This document shows positions 14,013-52,205 of a DNA stretch of 64,000 bases, in pieces. How positions within the stretch are numbered: position 1 is the stretch's first letter; each line of letters starts with the position of its first letter. This stretch comes from a virus. The translations under genes and the position numbers were made by a program. The DNA is taken from IMG/VR virus record IMGVR_UViG_3300008267_007212; one strand, 5' to 3'. Below the pieces are notes generated by a model that made no database searches, was not told where the DNA came from, and worked only from the letters and a program-made list of their open reading frames with translations.

Positions 14013-14418
14013 AGTGTTCTGTGTCTTTAAAAGTTTCGCCATCTTCCAAAATTATGCCAGATAAATTTTTTACTGTTTTAAAACCAGTCTGACTTTTTTC
14101 AAGTTGAGGAGTTTGATTTAAGTTATCTTTTTTGATCGAAACTTTATCGTTTTGTATTCGATACTTGTAGCATTCCATATACACGGATTTATAAGTATTC
14201 TCATCTACTACAATATAATCACCAGAAAGGCCGTACATTTCTGCATCTTTTACTGTAGGGGATGTAGCCGTGATGTTTCCACTTTCATCGTAGTATATTC
14301 GATATTCGTATTCAATTAGTGCAGGTTTATCTATTAGCCCTAACTCGTCTAATTGTCGAATTATTTCTTCTAAGGTAGTATCTTCATTGACTGTTATGGT
14401 AGGTTCGTTCGTACTCAT
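13993..14418 (-). CDS. Hypothetical protein
   Basis: 141-aa ORF in the operon, overlapping both neighbours. EYRIYYD motif. Confidence 0.7.
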   Translation of the reverse strand: MSTNEPTITVNEDTTLEEIIRQLDELGLIDKPALIEYEYRIYYDESGNITATSPTVKDAEMYGLSGDYIVVDENTYKSVYMECYKYRIQNDKVSIKKDNLNQTPQLEKSQTGFKTVKNLSGIILEDGETFKDTEHYDYKNR

Positions 14419-46561: not shown

Positions 46562-47457
46562 ACTTTGACAAATTATACACTATCCAATATCCTTCGGGAA
46601 GTTTTGGGCATTTTACTCATCTAATATTGTCTACTTACGGCGAAAATTTTACTAAACAAAAGGTCGAATTAAAATTTAAAAATAAAATGAATAGCGGCAG
46701 TAGTCATTTTATTTCTTCGCAAATTCAAAAATATTACGATGTGGATCGATATAAAGAGTATGCTGCAACAGCATTAACCGACGATTATATCGCATTGACT
46801 AAAAACGGAAACTACACAACTGTAATTATCGATTCTGGTATTGCTGATGACTCGGATACTTTTAAACAATTCTTTCCGAATGCAAACTGTATAAAAATAT
46901 GTTATACTGATTATAGCTGGCCGTTCAGTGCTAAATCTTTCTACACCAGATGTATGAGCGAAGTTCTATTAGAAGAAACTAAAATTGACGATTTCATTAA
47001 CCCCGATAAGGATAAATGGATATCGGCCGAGCCGTGGGAAAAAAGAGAAAAATATTTTCTATTTCTCCGAGATCATGAATTTAGACAGATGTGGAATCTT
47101 TCTAGTTCTCCGTTAACTGTTGATGTAAATGCATACCTTAGCTACGAGACTTTATATAATTCATTATCTAATATTGTCAAATTAAGTAATTTTCACGAAT
47201 TATATGATAAATTTTATAAAAATAATTCAATTCATATCGATTGGTATCTACGATGTCGAGAAATTTTATCAGCTATTCAAAATAATCAATGCATCGATCT
47301 AACTGATATTTCCGATGATTTGTTCAGTCAAGCAACCATCAATTACTATATACAAATTTTGTATAACTTCGAAATTCCAGCATGGGATTACCGAGATTGG
47401 TTTTCTTCGACTGATCAAATATTTTCAATGCTCGACTTACATAATATTTCACATTAA
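46558..47457 (+). CDS. Hypothetical protein (YPSGSFGHF motif), paralogue of 44844-45512
   Basis: 299-aa AT-rich ORF between gp47 and gp46, coupled at both ends. Confidence 0.7.
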   Translation: MNFDKLYTIQYPSGSFGHFTHLILSTYGENFTKQKVELKFKNKMNSGSSHFISSQIQKYYDVDRYKEYAATALTDDYIALTKNGNYTTVIIDSGIADDSDTFKQFFPNANCIKICYTDYSWPFSAKSFYTRCMSEVLLEETKIDDFINPDKDKWISAEPWEKREKYFLFLRDHEFRQMWNLSSSPLTVDVNAYLSYETLYNSLSNIVKLSNFHELYDKFYKNNSIHIDWYLRCREILSAIQNNQCIDLTDISDDLFSQATINYYIQILYNFEIPAWDYRDWFSSTDQIFSMLDLHNISH

Positions 47458-49229
47458 TGTTTAAAATAAAATCCTTATCCGTTAAAAACTTCATGAGCGT
47501 GGGCAATGCCACCCAAGGTATTGATTTTGATCGCAACGATTTAACTCTTGTGTTAGGCGAAAACTTAGACCTAGGCGGTGATGACAGCGGTGCTCGAAAT
47601 GGCACTGGTAAAACCACTATCATTAACGCATTGAGCTACAGTCTATTTGGTCAAGCGTTAACTAATATTAAAAAAGACAATTTGATTAATAAAACTAACA
47701 GCAAACACATGTTAGTTACCATCGATTTCGAATCCGAAGGTCGCCGCTATAGAATTGAGCGGGGACGTAAGCCAAATGTATTAAAGTTCTACGTGGACGA
47801 CGAAGAACTAGAAACCAAAGACGATAACAGTCAGGGCGACAGTCGAGAAACACAATTAGAAATCGAACGACTGTTAAACATGAGCCACGACATGTTTAAG
47901 CACATTGTTGCTCTAAATACATATACAGAACCATTTTTAAGTTTAAAAGCCAACGATCAACGAACTATCATTGAACAATTGCTGGGCATCACTGTGCTGT
48001 CAGAAAAAGCCGAAGCACTTAAAGAGCAAAACAAATCCACTAAAGAAGCAATTCAACAGGAAGAATTTCGAATTAAAGCTGTTGGTGATGCAAACAAACG
48101 AATTCAAGATCAGATTGATGCGCTGATTCGTCGACAAACATTGTGGACTAATAAGCACAAAGATGACATTGCATCATTGCAAGCAGCATATGATCAACTC
48201 GCAGAATTAGACATAGAGTCCGAGCTAGATGCTCATAAAAAGCTAGCCGAATATAATACAAAAAGTAAACAAATAGCCGATCTTACAACACTGGTTAAAC
48301 GCTGCGAACAAGACGAAACCAGGGAAACCAAGGAAATAGAAAAGCTTAAAAAAGAAATTGTAGCTTTAAAAAATCACACTTGTCATAGCTGTGGTCAATC
48401 ATTTCATGATGACAAACAAGTAATTGTTTTGGAAGAAAAACAAAAAACACTGCAAGAAACTGCGTTACAAGCATTGTCTACTAATACACAATTGCTAGAA
48501 AATCAAGAAGCTCTTGGACTACTAGGTGATCTGGGACAAAAACCAGTGACATTTTACAAAGATGAAAGCGATGCTTTCGAACATCGTAGCAGCATGGCAT
48601 CTGTTCTTACGCAATTAAATTCTAAGCAGTTAGAACAAGACCCGTACACAGATCAAATTAATGATATGAAGGAAACGGCTGTTGAAGAAATAAATTATGA
48701 TTTTATGAATTCGTTGGTGAGAATTAAAGATCACCAGGATTTTTTACTTAAGTTATTAACCAATAAAGATAGTTTTATTCGTAAAAAGATCATAGATCAG
48801 AATCTAAGTTACTTAAATGCAAGATTGGGATTTTATTTAGATAAAATTGGACTACCTCACACTGTCAAGTTCAATAACGACTTAAGTATTAGTATTGAAG
48901 AGCTGGGCAGAGAGTTGGACTTTGACAACTTGTCGCGGGGTGAACGTAACAGACTTATTTTATCACTGAGCTGGAGTTTCCGAGACGTATGGGAAAGTCT
49001 ATATCAGCCTATTAACTTATTGTTTATCGATGAGCTAGTAGACAGCGGCATGGATGCTAGTGGAGTCGAAAACAGTTTAGCGATTTTAAAGAAAATGAGT
49101 CGAGAAAGCAGCAAATCTGTGTGGCTAGTGTCACACAAAGACGAACTTGCCGGTCGTGTAAACAACATTCTTACTGTGGTCAAAGAAAACGGCTTTACAA
49201 ATTATAATACAGATGTTGAAGTAGTATAA
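47457..49229 (+). CDS. gp46: Recombination ATPase subunit, gp46 (Rad50/SbcC)
   Basis: KNFMSVGN, Walker A GARNGTGKTT, coiled coil with CHSC zinc hook, LSRGE signature, Walker B FIDE and SH motif. Confidence 0.95.
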   Translation: MFKIKSLSVKNFMSVGNATQGIDFDRNDLTLVLGENLDLGGDDSGARNGTGKTTIINALSYSLFGQALTNIKKDNLINKTNSKHMLVTIDFESEGRRYRIERGRKPNVLKFYVDDEELETKDDNSQGDSRETQLEIERLLNMSHDMFKHIVALNTYTEPFLSLKANDQRTIIEQLLGITVLSEKAEALKEQNKSTKEAIQQEEFRIKAVGDANKRIQDQIDALIRRQTLWTNKHKDDIASLQAAYDQLAELDIESELDAHKKLAEYNTKSKQIADLTTLVKRCEQDETRETKEIEKLKKEIVALKNHTCHSCGQSFHDDKQVIVLEEKQKTLQETALQALSTNTQLLENQEALGLLGDLGQKPVTFYKDESDAFEHRSSMASVLTQLNSKQLEQDPYTDQINDMKETAVEEINYDFMNSLVRIKDHQDFLLKLLTNKDSFIRKKIIDQNLSYLNARLGFYLDKIGLPHTVKFNNDLSISIEELGRELDFDNLSRGERNRLILSLSWSFRDVWESLYQPINLLFIDELVDSGMDASGVENSLAILKKMSRESSKSVWLVSHKDELAGRVNNILTVVKENGFTNYNTDVEVV

Positions 49230-49231
49230 TA

Positions 49232-50236
49232 ATGTTAGCAACATGGCACTGGCACATTGAAATTAGCAGTAAATGCACTTTACGCTGTCCTCGGTGCGCA
49301 CGACAAGAAGTTCCTGATACTTTAATAAACACTGAGTTAGATTTAGAGTTTTTCAAAAGAAATTTTACCCCTGAGTTCATTCTTTCTAATGTGGAAAAAA
49401 TAACATTCTGCGGCGACGACGGCGATCCTATATACGCACATGATCTAATACCTGTGATCAAATATCTGAAATCAGTCAAAGATATAGAGATTGTTATTGT
49501 TACCAACGGCAGCTATAAAAAAGAAGACTGGTGGACCAGTCTGGGTAGTACCTTGACTGCTAAAGATAGTGTACATTTTAGTGTCGATGGATTCGACAAT
49601 ATCAGTAATAATTTGTATAGGATAAACAGCGACTATGATAGTATAATACAAGGTATAAAAACATTGCGGGCGCACAGTCCTTGTCAGATTGTATGGGCCG
49701 CAATTGCGTTTCGATTTAACGAAGATCATTTAGAATCAATGAAAGACTATGCCGACCAGATTGGCGTGGATCGATTTCAAATTACACTGAGTACAAAATT
49801 TGGTGCGATCTATCCAAACTATGGAGAGAATGATCCTCTTCAACCCAGTAAAAAATATATTAGTAGCTCACATAGATTTGAACGCCAAATAACTGATTTT
49901 ACTATTAGGCAAACACCTGTTCACCCAATTAATATCAAACTCTATGAACACACAAAATTAAAAGATACAATCGTACCGTTATGTGAAATTGGCAACAAAG
50001 GCTTGTACATAGATGCACAGGGTAGATTATTTCCGTGCTGCTGGGTTGCGAATAGATATTCTCACAATCAAGAATGGCAAGATCTCGGATCAAAATTTAA
50101 TTTAAACAATATAACAATAGAACAGGCATTGGCAGACCCTTTCTGGATCAATGAATTCCAATCGTTTAAGTGGCAAGAATGTCAGACAAAATGCAAGAAA
50201 AACATGGTAAACCAGGAATATGCAACATCATGGTAA
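49232..50236 (+). CDS. Radical SAM protein with C-terminal twitch/SPASM-like domain
   Basis: CTLRCPRC, FCGDDGDP, TNGS and FSVDG motifs. C-terminal C..GLYIDAQGRLFPCCW..CQTKC. Confidence 0.9.
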   Translation: MLATWHWHIEISSKCTLRCPRCARQEVPDTLINTELDLEFFKRNFTPEFILSNVEKITFCGDDGDPIYAHDLIPVIKYLKSVKDIEIVIVTNGSYKKEDWWTSLGSTLTAKDSVHFSVDGFDNISNNLYRINSDYDSIIQGIKTLRAHSPCQIVWAAIAFRFNEDHLESMKDYADQIGVDRFQITLSTKFGAIYPNYGENDPLQPSKKYISSSHRFERQITDFTIRQTPVHPINIKLYEHTKLKDTIVPLCEIGNKGLYIDAQGRLFPCCWVANRYSHNQEWQDLGSKFNLNNITIEQALADPFWINEFQSFKWQECQTKCKKNMVNQEYATSW

Positions 50237-50276
50237 ACTAGATAAATTATAGTACACATGGCACAACAAATCTAAC

Positions 50277-50711
50277 ATGACTTGGTTTTTTCAAGACACC
50301 CCAGTTGAGGAATTGCCCGAGGATTGCATAGGATTTGTATATCTAATCACAAACAAAATATCAAACAAAAAATACATTGGCAAAAAACTGGCAAAATTCA
50401 GTAAAACTACTCAAAGAACAGTAAAATTAAAAAACGGCACCAAAAAGAAAAAGAAAATTCGCTCAAAAGTCGATTCAGACTGGAGAGATTATTATGGCTC
50501 AAGTCCTGAGTTACAAACAGATGTACAAACATTAGGCTCAGACAATTTTACCAGAGAAATACTTTACTATTGTAATTCCAAAGCAATTTGTAGTTATATT
50601 GAAGCAAGAGAACAATTTACCAGGCGTGTATTAGAATCAGACGAATATTACAACGGCATAATCAATTGTCGTATCCATGGCTCCCATATAAAAAATAAAT
50701 TAAGCATTTAA
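50277..50711 (+). CDS. Compact stand-alone GIY-YIG nuclease-fold protein
   Basis: GFVYLITN...KKYIGKK, YYGSS, FTREIL, conserved E and YYN. Lys-rich insert KLKNGTKKKKKIRSK. No appended DNA-binding domain. Confidence 0.82.
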   Translation: MTWFFQDTPVEELPEDCIGFVYLITNKISNKKYIGKKLAKFSKTTQRTVKLKNGTKKKKKIRSKVDSDWRDYYGSSPELQTDVQTLGSDNFTREILYYCNSKAICSYIEAREQFTRRVLESDEYYNGIINCRIHGSHIKNKLSI

Positions 50712-51139
50712 GACTCGCACAGGTCAATATCATGTGCCCTAGACCTGGATCTCGGATCGCAGGGACGGAAGACTCACCGTGCTAGTGAGCACTCAACCAC
50801 TACCCGACAGGATGAAGATTGCCAATGCCGCAATTTGGTTGTTTGAAAAGGATTAACAGGCTAAAAAGACGTAGCAGTGATGCTACAAGGTTTATATGTA
50901 TGTTAGCGTATAGATATAAACTTGCCGTTGTGATAAGAACTGAGCTCGAGGTACCGGACAACCGCCTCTGTAATCGCTTTAACGCTAATGACTGTGCTAC
51001 TCGGATGAAGCATTATCATTTTTGCCCTGTGCGGGCAAAGTGTGACTGATTAATCTGGATGAAACTTATATCGCTACGCTCTTTAATTAAAATATATCAC
51101 TGAGCGACAGCGAAAGTGATAGATGTGCGTAGCACATCT
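50712..51139 (+). ncRNA. Candidate large structured non-coding RNA (unknown class)
   Basis: About ten consecutive helices, GNRA loops (GTGA, GACA), two candidate pseudoknots and three GGATGAA copies. Visibly more GC-rich than other intergenic DNA. Strand inferred from the GNRA loops and G-U pairs. Confidence 0.6.
51121..51139. terminator. Perfect 8-bp hairpin at the junction of convergent transcription units
   Basis: AGATGTGC-gta-GCACATCT abutting the stop codon of the minus-strand ORF 51139-51357. No long U-tract. Confidence 0.45.
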
Positions 51140-51357
51140 TAAAAGAATGGTAATCCTGTTTCCTTTGTGGTATTAAGGTTGTCTTCAATAATACCATTAA
51201 TGATTTCTCTTTCTTGGAAACTTATTTCCAAGGCTTCACTATAAGTTATTCCACCCCTCATATGCCAACAAATTTTTAATATATTCTTCTTAAGGGCTTT
51301 TGAATCTTTGTCGAAGTCTTTGATCATTTCAACAATTGATTCATTGTCTAAACTCAA
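51139..51357 (-). CDS. Small baseplate hub assembly protein (gp51-like)
   Basis: ICWHMRGGITYSEA...ER.II motif. Directly downstream of the gp26-like gene, mirroring the T4 gp26/gp51 pairing. Confidence 0.55.
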   Translation of the reverse strand: MSLDNESIVEMIKDFDKDSKALKKNILKICWHMRGGITYSEALEISFQEREIINGIIEDNLNTTKETGLPFF

Positions 51358-51362
51358 AAGCC

Positions 51363-52205
51363 TTATACGAAAAAACTTGCTTGCTCAAAAACTAATGGGG
51401 TTTCATAGGGTTTGTTGCAGTCTTCGTGTTCGCAAGTTATGGGAATTTTTTTAAGTGGACTCTGTTCTCCAAAGCTTTCTAGTTTTGTTTTAACTGAGTC
51501 CCACACTGTTTTGTTGCAATTTTGAAAGAATTCATGAATTTGTTCCGGATCTTCTACTAGAACGCCTTCTTCTGTTTTAATCCCAGCTACACTCTTACTG
51601 ATTTGTTCTACAGTAAGAGATAATAATCTTTGGAAAACCACATTGAATTTTGATAATTTTTCTTCGTCGCTCAGTGAATCGTCACCTGCTACAGCTAATA
51701 ACCGTTGATGTTCGTAGTTTTCTAAACTGGCTTTGTTAAATTGTTGGTAAGTCTGTGGCCTAATATAAATTTCGAGTCCTTCTACTTTTATAGTGGAATC
51801 AAAATCGGGACAAGTTATCTGTGACGATAATGCGCCAAGATCCGCAGTATTTTCATTTTTTCTTTGACAATGGGGACAAACACTGACGAACTCCATGCCC
51901 GGGCCATATGTTGCATGACGTATAGCTATCAACACTGCATCTAAATCAATGGCAGGCATTTTCCATGCGTCTTTGATGGCAGGTACACAACTTTGTATAA
52001 CTTCCACAGTACTTTGTCCATTTAACAGTGCATCGGGAGTTTTTAAGATTAGTTCGTCTTTGGCAGTCATCGGATAAACTGGTAATTCTCCAGTAACCGG
52101 TAGATCTAAACTGCCAGGTGGATACCATCGTCCCATGCTGGGCAATTTAAGATATAATTGAGGCTGTCTAAAATGTTTAGCCAAAGGATTAGCAATATTA
52201 ACCAT
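51363..52205 (-). CDS. Baseplate hub subunit/chaperone, T4 gp26-like
   Basis: NPL..HFRQP..Y.KLPS.G, PMTAKDE, DLDAVLIAIR.A.YG and two CxxC-type motifs. Confidence 0.75.
   Translation of the reverse strand: MVNIANPLAKHFRQPQLYLKLPSMGRWYPPGSLDLPVTGELPVYPMTAKDELILKTPDALLNGQSTVEVIQSCVPAIKDAWKMPAIDLDAVLIAIRHATYGPGMEFVSVCPHCQRKNENTADLGALSSQITCPDFDSTIKVEGLEIYIRPQTYQQFNKASLENYEHQRLLAVAGDDSLSDEEKLSKFNVVFQRLLSLTVEQISKSVAGIKTEEGVLVEDPEQIHEFFQNCNKTVWDSVKTKLESFGEQSPLKKIPITCEHEDCNKPYETPLVFEQASFFV

What the first reader, a model, noticed from the sequence alone, without database searches (positions are those of the whole stretch)
50277..51139. Compact GIY-YIG nuclease followed directly by a ~430-nt structured RNA-like element: candidate RNA-associated nuclease system
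Seen in sequence: the only large gap in an otherwise packed window starts right after the GIY-YIG stop and is filled with helices. These are GCACA/TGTGC (50717-37), CCCT/AGGG enclosing GATC/GATC (50737-64), CTCAC/GTGAG (50773-89), CAACCA/TGGTTG enclosing CC-GACA-GG and ATTGC/GCAAT (50794-841), GTAGCA-GTGA-TGCTAC (50871-86), a long AT stem (50887-923), GAGG/CCTC enclosing CGG-ACAA-CCG (50948-68), TTTGCCC/GGGCAAA (51021-39), TATCACT/AGTGATA (51095-121) and AGATGTGC/GCACATCT (51121-39). The 144-aa protein is only the catalytic fold plus a very basic insert, without the DNA-binding tail typical of Seg-type homing GIY-YIG enzymes. Established: nuclease ORFs paired with an adjacent large ncRNA define HEARO/OMEGA-type RNA-guided systems. 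Inference: this could be an analogous GIY-YIG ribonucleoprotein or a new large phage ncRNA class. I do not recognise it as tmRNA, RNase P, or a group I/II intron.
Basis: partly seen in the sequence, partly recalled or inferred. Interest (0 to 1): 0.88.

Follow-up and report, generated by a model that had tools for sequence, protein, structure and literature searches.

The report
Full-length Polynucleobacter-1 phage RNA
The gap behind the small nuclease gene of this uncultured giant freshwater phage encodes a real, knotted non-coding RNA of about 430 bases; its first third is an orphan RNA motif catalogued in 2010, it is not the nuclease's guide, and its function is still unknown.

Summary
Window 50712-51139 (+) is a conserved, non-coding, highly structured RNA packed between the GIY-YIG stop codon and the stop codon of a convergent gene.

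Its first 133 nt are a full-length match to Rfam RF01718 (Polynucleobacter-1, 114.9 bits). The other ~300 nt are uncatalogued but equally conserved. They hold a covarying pseudoknot and two identical 7-nt boxes (GGATGAA), which were identical in 160/160 phage loci across 8 variants.

On 30 homologues, 89.7% of cells pair and 62 of 98 pairs show compensatory changes (0/500 shuffles reach this).

In phage contigs the RNA follows the GIY-YIG gene in 97/98 cases. The guide-RNA reading is nevertheless not supported:
- Burkholderiales genomes carry the RNA in small islands with no GIY-YIG gene; 18/18 have a divergent DUF6641 gene instead.
- A clade of close GIY-YIG homologues lacks the RNA.
- No variable guide segment exists.
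- No nuclease residue tracks the boxes.

My best reading is an autonomous RNA scaffold, co-transcribed with the nuclease gene, that shows two identical boxes to an unknown reader.

This scan has found the same RNA many times on other DNA.

The parts
50277..50711 (+). GIY-YIG nuclease gene, 144 aa, catalytic domain only
   Evidence: Pfam PF19835 SegE_GIY-YIG, 113.8 bits over residues 3-129. AlphaFold model pLDDT 89. Best structural match is the I-TevI catalytic domain (Z 8.2); T4 EndoII scores Z 5.3. At least 585 relatives in IMG/VR.
50712..51139 (+). Full-length structured non-coding RNA (extended Polynucleobacter-1)
   Evidence: Colinear conservation over about 430 nt in 59 of 80 GIY-YIG loci. 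98 pairs, 89.7% paired, 62 with compensatory changes. The many G-U pairs fix the + strand. No conserved ORF.
50712..50844 (+). 5' domain, equal to Rfam RF01718 Polynucleobacter-1
   Evidence: cmscan 114.9 bits (gathering score 37), E 3e-24, model positions 1-141 of 141. Helices 1-7 covary. A different domain of about 200 nt replaces it in some phage loci.
50871..50922 (+). Two central hairpins: GTAGCA-GTGA-TGCTAC and the long AT stem
   Evidence: Helices 9-11. In the AT stem 11 of 13 pairs show changes on both sides.
50927..50979 (+). Pseudoknot core. GTTGT (50927-31) pairs with ACAAC (50958-62). This crosses GAGC (50942-45)/GCTT (50976-79) and CGAGG (50947-51)/CCTC-T-G (50965-70).
   Evidence: Helices 12-14: 96%, 100% and 88% of cells paired, with compensatory changes in 3, 4 and 1 pairs. 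The unpaired letters GGTA..ACCGCC are invariant.
51001..51063 (+). Twin-box domain. Box 1 is at 51003-51009 and box 2 at 51057-51063, both GGATGAA. They flank helix TCGGAT/ATCT-GA and hairpin TTTGCCC/GGGCAAA (51020-51040).
   Evidence: The two boxes are identical in 160/160 phage loci caught by the regular expression, across 8 variants. Mutual information is perfect between the two boxes and with no third column. The same principle holds with other box sequences in bacterial copies.
51095..51138 (+). Two 3'-terminal hairpins: TATCACT...AGTGATA, with an inner GC-GACA-GC, and GATGTGC-GTA-GCACATC. Homology ends here.
   Evidence: All 14 pairs change on both sides (helices 17 and 19; the paired share is lowered by alignment register). 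Flanks diverge directly after the last hairpin. The stop codon of the convergent 72-aa ORF starts at 51139.

Best explanation
Window 50712-51139 encodes the full-length form of the orphan RNA family Polynucleobacter-1. It is a plus-strand non-coding RNA of about 430 nt made of four parts: a 5' domain (the Rfam model), two hairpins, a pseudoknotted core with invariant unpaired letters, and a 3' domain that carries the same 7-nt box twice, 54 nt apart.

Shown:
- The RNA fold.
- Its spread in hundreds of uncultured giant T4-like aquatic phages, once per genome.
- Its fixed place directly behind a small GIY-YIG gene.
- Its occurrence without that gene in small Burkholderiales islands.

Inferred:
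- The RNA is made as the tail of the gp46-(radical SAM)-GIY-YIG transcript, because no promoter of its own is seen.
- It works as an autonomous RNA scaffold, not as the nuclease's guide or UTR.
- Its core holds the two identical boxes in place for one reader that binds twice.
- The linkage to the nuclease gene reflects shared transcription and inheritance.
For: - Family: Rfam hit of 114.9 bits.
- Length: conservation of all ~430 nt with sharp ends.
- Fold: covariation, 62 of 98 pairs, 0/500 shuffles.
- Not coding.
- Copy number: single copy in 5 of 5 long phage records, one of them 345 kb and 99% complete.
- Position: in an RNA-anchored scan, 97 of 98 loci have the GIY-YIG gene upstream on the same strand. 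Both outer neighbours vary and mix freely.
- Transcription: no sigma-70-like or T4-late-type box lies before the RNA in phage loci.
- Separability: in 7 loci an extra 0.2-1.1 kb, in two of them shown to be an inserted gene, separates the nuclease gene from the RNA.
- Autonomy: 18 of 18 bacterial loci carry RF01718 at 69-104 bits with no GIY-YIG gene within 8 kb.
- Twin boxes: identical in 160/160 phage loci, and the same principle in 12 of 13 bacterial copies.
- Reader not local: no third covarying column, no local complement and no tracking nuclease residue.
Against: - No transcript ends or abundance data. One metatranscriptome holds only two short, low-depth contigs, one on the ORF and one on the RNA, and DNA carry-over is possible.
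- The 97/98 adjacency could still reflect a functional tie to the nuclease in phages.
- Thermodynamic stability of the single sequence is unremarkable (z = -1.39).
- In one variant locus (L019) the boxes differ at position 1.
Confidence: 0.6

Rival explanations
1. RNA-guided or RNA-bound GIY-YIG ribonucleoprotein. The RNA binds the DNA-binding-domain-less nuclease and gives it target specificity, as omega RNAs do for IscB and TnpB.
For: The nuclease lacks a DNA-binding tail. The RNA starts at its stop codon, and 97 of 98 RNA loci have the gene upstream. The pair is kept while its flanks vary.
Against: - Bacterial copies of the RNA have no GIY-YIG gene within 8 kb.
- Seventeen close GIY-YIG homologues, and all cultured-phage homologues examined, lack the RNA.
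- There is no variable guide. The only variable element is a 7-nt box with 8 variants.
- No nuclease residue tracks the boxes (mutual information at most 0.47 of 1.0), and the boxes differ in 42% of protein pairs that are 90-95% identical.
Confidence: 0.05
2. A cis-acting signal shared by helper phage and a parasitic island. The element, as RNA primer or as folded single strand, marks a site that the phage replication or packaging machinery uses, and small bacterial islands carry it to be copied or packaged by the phage.
For: - The same element sits in phages, once per genome, at the border between the replication and structural modules.
- It also sits in small bacterial islands with a tyrosine recombinase. 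These are rare: 2 of 151 Burkholderiaceae genomes.
Against: - Dense compensatory changes, G-U pairs and a pseudoknot point to a folded RNA with a strand, not a duplex DNA site.
- Island boxes (NGCGAAA type) do not match any of the 8 phage box variants.
- No origin or packaging data exist.
Confidence: 0.12
3. Conflict RNA. In bacteria the RNA belongs to a defence or toxin module (DUF6641 plus RNA), and phages carry a mimic that neutralises it, or the reverse. The twin boxes would be the fast-evolving specificity sites of that arms race.
For: - 18 of 18 bacterial loci pair the RNA with a divergent DUF6641 gene.
- In one genome a PDC-S14 defence-candidate homologue follows the RNA.
- Distribution is patchy, and IS elements or tRNA genes lie near some of the loci.
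- The boxes evolve faster than the neighbouring protein.
- All 18 bacterial loci have an invariant TAAATA box about 62 nt upstream. Ten fit NATAAATA, the T4-type late promoter, which is enriched in this phage's own intergenic DNA.
Against: - DUF6641 has no PADLOC hit and no informative fold match.
- Island and phage box sequences differ.
- The RNA is far more elaborate than known antitoxin or decoy RNAs.
- Nothing has been tested by experiment.
Confidence: 0.12
4. A 3' UTR element of the nuclease mRNA: a stabiliser, terminator or insulator at a convergent gene junction, or a feedback regulator of a dangerous nuclease.
For: It starts at the stop codon, has no promoter of its own, ends in a hairpin, and sits where + and - strand genes converge.
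Against: - Seventeen helices plus a pseudoknot and invariant junctions are far more than is needed for that role.
- No U-tract terminator lies on the + strand.
- It persists when another gene is inserted between it and the nuclease gene.
- It exists without the nuclease gene in bacteria.
Confidence: 0.05
5. Homing target. The GIY-YIG enzyme is a free-standing homing endonuclease that inserted next to, and cuts, a conserved phage RNA gene.
For: The fold is closest to the I-TevI catalytic domain. The cassette is absent at the same gp46/structural-gene junction in Pseudomonas phage PA5oct.
Against: RNA genes without the nuclease gene were not found in phages: 97 of 98, and the one exception is a short locus of the inserted-gene type. 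The nuclease family is wider than the RNA, not the reverse.
Confidence: 0.03

Closest known systems
Polynucleobacter-1 RNA motif (Rfam RF01718; Weinberg et al. 2010, Genome Biol 11:R31, PMC2864571)
   Same: Window 50712-50844 matches the whole model at 114.9 bits. It lies downstream of the same gene family that the authors noted (GOS11034). The raw alignment in their supplement already shows flanks that align with window 50845-51065.
   Different: The published model covers only 141 nt. The pseudoknot core, the twin boxes and the 3' hairpins are not modelled or described. The authors found it in no sequenced phage, whereas here it sits in phage contigs of up to 345 kb. The upstream gene is here identified as a GIY-YIG nuclease gene.
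Large ornate bacterial and phage RNAs of unknown function (GOLLD, ROOL, HEARO, as listed in Weinberg 2010 and Rfam)
   Same: Several hundred nucleotides, many helices, pseudoknot, phage- or mobile-element-borne, no known function (comparison from my own knowledge).
   Different: No Rfam match to any of them, even at E up to 10. The architecture differs. The twin identical boxes have no counterpart that I know of.
OMEGA/HEARO systems (IscB or TnpB with omega RNA)
   Same: A small nuclease gene next to a large structured RNA.
   Different: The nuclease is of the GIY-YIG type, not RuvC/HNH. There is no guide segment. The RNA and the nuclease occur apart.
GIY-YIG nucleases of T4-type phages (I-TevI, Seg proteins, T4 endonuclease II)
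   Same: GIY-YIG fold with conserved catalytic tyrosines, arginine, glutamate and asparagine. The RNA-less clade lies next to nrdB, as I recall T4 denA does (from memory, not checked).
   Different: There is no DNA-binding domain, unlike I-TevI and the Seg proteins. Structural similarity to EndoII is only Z 5.3. Sequence search of the PDB finds nothing.

Membership tests
Rfam RF01718 Polynucleobacter-1 | Covariance-model score at or above the curated gathering score (37 bits) over the full model | tested here: met
   114.9 bits, model positions 1-141 of 141, E 3e-24
Rfam RF01718 Polynucleobacter-1 | Consensus helices kept by compensatory changes | tested here: met
   Helices 1-7: 88-100% of cells paired, 21 of 32 pairs with changes on both sides
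Rfam RF01718 Polynucleobacter-1 | Lies downstream of a GOS11034 / PSSM2_218-like gene (Weinberg 2010 supplement) | tested here: inconclusive
   It lies directly downstream of a gene whose homologues occur in 22 Prochlorococcus and 339 Synechococcus phage records. PSSM2_218 itself was not compared.
OMEGA/HEARO-type RNA-guided nuclease system | IscB/TnpB-type (RuvC, HNH) nuclease | tested here: not met
   The protein is a GIY-YIG domain only
OMEGA/HEARO-type RNA-guided nuclease system | Conserved scaffold joined to a variable guide segment | tested here: not met
   Homology runs from end to end. The flanks are neighbouring genes. The only variable element is a 7-nt box with 8 variants.
OMEGA/HEARO-type RNA-guided nuclease system | Obligate co-occurrence of RNA and nuclease | tested here: not met
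   18 bacterial RNA loci have no GIY-YIG gene. 17 close GIY-YIG genes have no RNA.
Seg-type free-standing GIY-YIG homing endonuclease | GIY-YIG catalytic domain | tested here: met
   PF19835, 113.8 bits; I-TevI catalytic domain Z 8.2, rmsd 2.7 over 82 residues
Seg-type free-standing GIY-YIG homing endonuclease | C-terminal DNA-binding domain | tested here: not met
   The protein is 144 aa and the domain covers residues 3-129. No further domain is present.
Seg-type free-standing GIY-YIG homing endonuclease | Sporadic presence among otherwise syntenic genomes | tested here: inconclusive
   Absent at the same junction in PA5oct, but inherited largely vertically among the metagenomic phages
T4 endonuclease II (DenA) | Specific structural or sequence similarity to EndoII above other GIY-YIG enzymes | tested here: inconclusive
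   2wsh scores Z 5.3, below I-TevI at 8.2. There is no sequence hit in the PDB.
tRNA, tmRNA, RNase P, group I/II introns, GOLLD, ROOL and other Rfam families | Match to the family model | tested here: not met
   No other Rfam hit at gathering score in the window, nor at E up to 10 in 50000-51500. ARAGORN finds nothing.

The most novel reading that the evidence does not exclude
The RNA is the currency of a conflict between giant T4-like phages and small bacterial islands. The islands (DUF6641, the RNA, and a small tyrosine recombinase) would transcribe their own copy from a T4-late-type promoter box only when such a phage infects. The twin boxes would be the rapidly co-evolving specificity sites through which the phage and island RNAs compete for, or address, the same still unknown reader.
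Probability: 0.1. Interest if true: 0.8.

Novelty: new member of a known kind. Interest (0 to 1): 0.5.

Why it matters
Polynucleobacter-1 has been an orphan Rfam motif since 2010, filed as a 141-nt bacterial sRNA. This locus, together with hundreds of relatives, shows three things:
- The real unit is a pseudoknotted RNA three times as long.
- Its main home is giant aquatic phages.
- Its most conserved part is the uncatalogued 3' core with two always-identical boxes.

That puts it among the few large, ornate phage RNAs with unknown biochemistry. It also gives concrete handles for experiments: the boxes, the core, and the DUF6641 islands.

For annotation, it removes a tempting false lead, an RNA-guided GIY-YIG nuclease. 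It also argues that the Rfam model should be extended.

Tried and rejected
- blastn of 50277-51139 against cultured phages: no match. RF01718 was absent from the whole records of PA5oct, Melnitz-3, P-HM2, phiM19 and S-ShM2, so no cultured system is at hand.
- Sequence search of the PDB with the nuclease: nothing meaningful. Foldseek against the PDB was weak; only the wide structural search was clear.
- Helix GGC (50859-61)/GCC (50924-26): 56% paired, no covariation; dropped. RNAalifold's 5'-end/GTT pairing was dropped in favour of the pseudoknot, which uses the same letters and covaries better (my reading).
- Search for the twin boxes' partner. No third covarying RNA column. No excess of the box's own complement or of extra copies in up to 10 kb of flanks (55 against 63 expected). 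No tracking residue in the nuclease.
- A T4-late or sigma-70 promoter directly before the RNA or before the nuclease gene in phage loci: none consistent.
- DUF6641 as a hidden GIY-YIG relative: hhalign probability 0.2. Fold search gave only helical noise, Z at most 4.7. No PADLOC hit. No paper mentions it.
- Literature search for a later description of the long RNA: only Weinberg 2010 was found.
- Expression: only contigs could be laid. One RNA library holds two short pieces; this gives no ends and no levels.
- The coding reading of the 76-aa ORF at 50819-51049 was rejected.

Full report
**What is there.**
The window is part of an uncultured T4-type giant phage.
- An SbcC/gp46-like gene lies at 47457-49229.
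- A radical-SAM/SPASM gene lies at 49232-50236.
- The 144-aa GIY-YIG gene lies at 50277-50711.
- These are followed by convergent minus-strand genes: a 72-aa ORF at 51139-51357 and a baseplate-hub gene at 51363-52205.
- The gp46 homologue is closest, at 50% identity, to Pseudomonas jumbo phage PA5oct.
- NATAAATA, the T4-type late promoter, is strongly enriched in the window's intergenic DNA. Eight of 16 copies fall in the 3% of the sequence that is intergenic, and five lie 24-47 nt before gene starts.
- The window is held at high share by fungus- and freshwater-labelled metagenome runs and at lower share by lake-water and drinking-water runs.
- The stretch 50712-51138 has no conserved ORF. It runs exactly from the GIY-YIG stop codon to the stop codon of the convergent gene.

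**A known family, but only in part.**
- Rfam's covariance models give one hit in the whole window: RF01718, Polynucleobacter-1, at 50712-50844 (+). It scores 114.9 bits against a gathering score of 37 and covers the full model.
- No other Rfam family matches, even at E up to 10, and there are no tRNA or tmRNA genes.
- The only paper in the library that names the motif is Weinberg et al. 2010.
- Its supplement says the motif occurs in aquatic metagenomes and in one Polynucleobacter strain, and that most copies lie downstream of genes of family GOS11034, with possible homology to PSSM2_218 of cyanophage P-SSM2.
- It also says the motif was found in no sequenced purified phage.
- The raw Stockholm file shows flanks of several GOS scaffolds that go on aligning with window 50845-51065.
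- So the family and its gene association are known.

**The RNA is three times longer than the model.**
- The GIY-YIG protein has at least 585 relatives in IMG/VR, and 80 loci were kept.
- blastn and a profile HMM find the whole ~430 nt, colinear, directly after the gene in 59 of the 80 loci.
- Homology stops sharply after the last hairpin, where the neighbouring genes begin.
- On an alignment of 30 full-length copies (A1), RNAalifold predicts 76 pairs, 41 of them with compensatory changes.
- I added the helices that RNAalifold missed and replaced two weak ones.
- The resulting structure has 98 pairs in 19 helices.
- 89.7% of cells pair, against 77.3% in shuffles, and 62 pairs carry changes on both sides (0/500 shuffles reach this).
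- When the 3' partners are slid by 1-3 columns, only 36-43% of cells pair.
- The frequent G-U pairs fix the plus strand.
ACAAC at 50958-62 is not a hairpin loop. It pairs with GTTGT at 50927-31, and the variants TTG/CAA, TCA/TGA and TCG/CGA covary. This forms a pseudoknot across two nested covarying helices, and the unpaired letters GGTA..ACCGCC in it are invariant.
- The single sequence is not unusually stable (z = -1.39).
- The 76-aa ORF in the gap is broken in every homologue.

**Twin boxes.**
- GGATGAA occurs at 51003-09 and again at 51057-63.
- In the 160 phage loci where both boxes could be located, they are identical to each other in all 160, although eight variants exist: AGATAAT, GGATGAA, GGATAAT, GGATGAT and others.
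- The two boxes predict each other perfectly, and no third RNA column does.
- Neither the complement of a locus's own box nor extra copies of it are enriched in the flanks.
- No GIY-YIG residue follows the boxes, and the boxes differ in 42% of pairs whose proteins are 90-95% identical.
- One variant locus, L019, differs at box position 1.
- I saw the concerted change before consulting earlier notes. Earlier reports of this scan describe the same feature on other genomes.

**Link to the nuclease.**
- A scan anchored on a pattern from the 3' domain returned more than 120 phage stretches. Of the 98 with enough upstream DNA, 97 have the GIY-YIG gene upstream on the same strand, mostly directly adjacent.
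- The one exception is a short locus of the type in which a gene is inserted between the two.
- The outer neighbours vary and recombine freely. Upstream is gp46, a radical-SAM gene or others. Downstream is the baseplate hub or at least ten other gene clusters.
- At the same gp46/structural-gene junction, PA5oct has neither the nuclease gene nor the RNA.
- In 7 loci an extra 0.2-1.1 kb separates the nuclease gene from the RNA; in the two loci examined it is an inserted gene.
- Seventeen GIY-YIG genes that are 65-75% identical have no RNA. Most of these form one clade, and those whose upstream neighbour was typed sit after nrdB.
- Homologues in cultured phages (Melnitz 54% identity; cyanophages 30-37%) have no room for the RNA, and five whole cultured-phage records have no RF01718 hit.
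- Some phage loci keep the 3' core and the boxes but carry a different 5' domain of about 200 nt.
- The protein is a catalytic-domain-only GIY-YIG enzyme: I-TevI catalytic domain Z 8.2, T4 EndoII Z 5.3.

**Bacterial copies without the nuclease.**
- A pattern scan of 185,579 species genomes gave 36 stretches. The 18 that I tested all carry RF01718 at 69-104 bits.
- They come from Polynucleobacter rarus, Limnohabitans, Comamonadaceae and other Burkholderiales, plus a few oddly labelled MAGs.
- None has a GIY-YIG gene within the 8-kb locus.
- All 18 have a divergent DUF6641 gene whose start lies mostly 135-230 nt upstream of the RNA (one locus 557 nt).
- Five or six have a small tyrosine recombase gene about 850 nt downstream.
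- In P. rarus, a homologue of defence candidate PDC-S14 follows the RNA.
- Only 2 of 151 Burkholderiaceae genomes sampled carry the RNA.
- The bacterial RNAs show the same core (AAGG..ACCGCCCTT) and twin boxes with other sequences: GCGAAA, TCGAAA, GCAAAA and others, concerted in 12 of 13 loci.
- An invariant TAAATA box lies 53-67 nt before the Rfam start in 18 of 18 loci, and ten of these fit NATAAATA.
- DUF6641 is not a GIY-YIG relative and has no informative fold match.

**Reading.**
- These facts exclude a protein-coding gap, a simple terminator or UTR, a homing target, and (with high probability) an RNA guide for the nuclease.
- They fit an autonomous, elaborate RNA that phages transcribe with the nuclease gene and that bacteria carry in small mobile islands.
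- Its invariant core and twin boxes argue for a defined three-dimensional scaffold read twice by one partner.
- What that partner is, and whether the phage and island copies cooperate or compete, is open.
- The only expression evidence is weak. One sediment metatranscriptome holds two short contigs, one on the ORF and one on the RNA, and none on the neighbouring genes.

Noticed in passing
L203-L238 (bacterial loci), 53-67 nt upstream of the RF01718 start: An invariant TAAATA box lies on the RNA strand in 18 of 18 bacterial loci. Ten read [G/T]ATAAATA, the T4-type late promoter, which is also enriched in this phage's intergenic DNA. It might make the island RNA inducible by phage infection.
   Followed up: partly
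L220:3073-3573 (+), L207:3091-3552 (-) and 16 other bacterial loci: A DUF6641 gene of about 150 aa always lies divergently next to the bacterial RNA. A second small conserved ORF follows it in 10 of 18 loci. There is no fold or defence-database match.
   Followed up: partly
L220:2-2398 (-): In Polynucleobacter rarus the gene directly downstream of the RNA matches the PADLOC defence candidate PDC-S14 (E 1.5e-51 over its first 148 residues).
   Followed up: no
L004, L006, L007, L034, L019 (about 200 nt after the GIY-YIG stop codon): A phage subgroup replaces the Rfam 5' domain with a different conserved domain (GACACTGTGTTGGG...CCCAACCCCATTGAGGA...). It keeps the pseudoknot core, the twin boxes and the 3' hairpins, so Rfam's model misses these copies.
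   Followed up: partly
L002:2536-3540 (+), L022:2637-3437 (+): Two different genes (334 and 266 aa, both with a GCS..G motif near the start) are inserted between the GIY-YIG gene and the RNA in some phages.
   Followed up: no
window 49232-50236 (+): A radical-SAM/SPASM gene sits between gp46 and the GIY-YIG gene here and in about a third of the related loci. In the others, gp46 abuts the nuclease gene. It is a variable cargo slot.
   Followed up: partly
window 50687-50711 and the homologous place in L-loci: A short conserved word, TTAAGC(A/G)GT(A/T)A, with a YRGT core, lies 5-10 nt before the RNA start. In the window it overlaps the last codons of the nuclease gene. The RNA may start a little upstream of 50712.
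   Followed up: no
window 14043-14383: The second-largest stretch without an ORF of 60 aa or more (341 nt). It looks like ordinary coding sequence on the minus strand, perhaps a broken or short-ORF gene. It has no Rfam hit.
   Followed up: no
window 50887-50870 and 51113-51097 (- strand): Two hairpins of the RNA read as terminator-like sites on the opposite strand (stem followed by a T run). They could also stop transcription coming in from the convergent structural genes.
   Followed up: no
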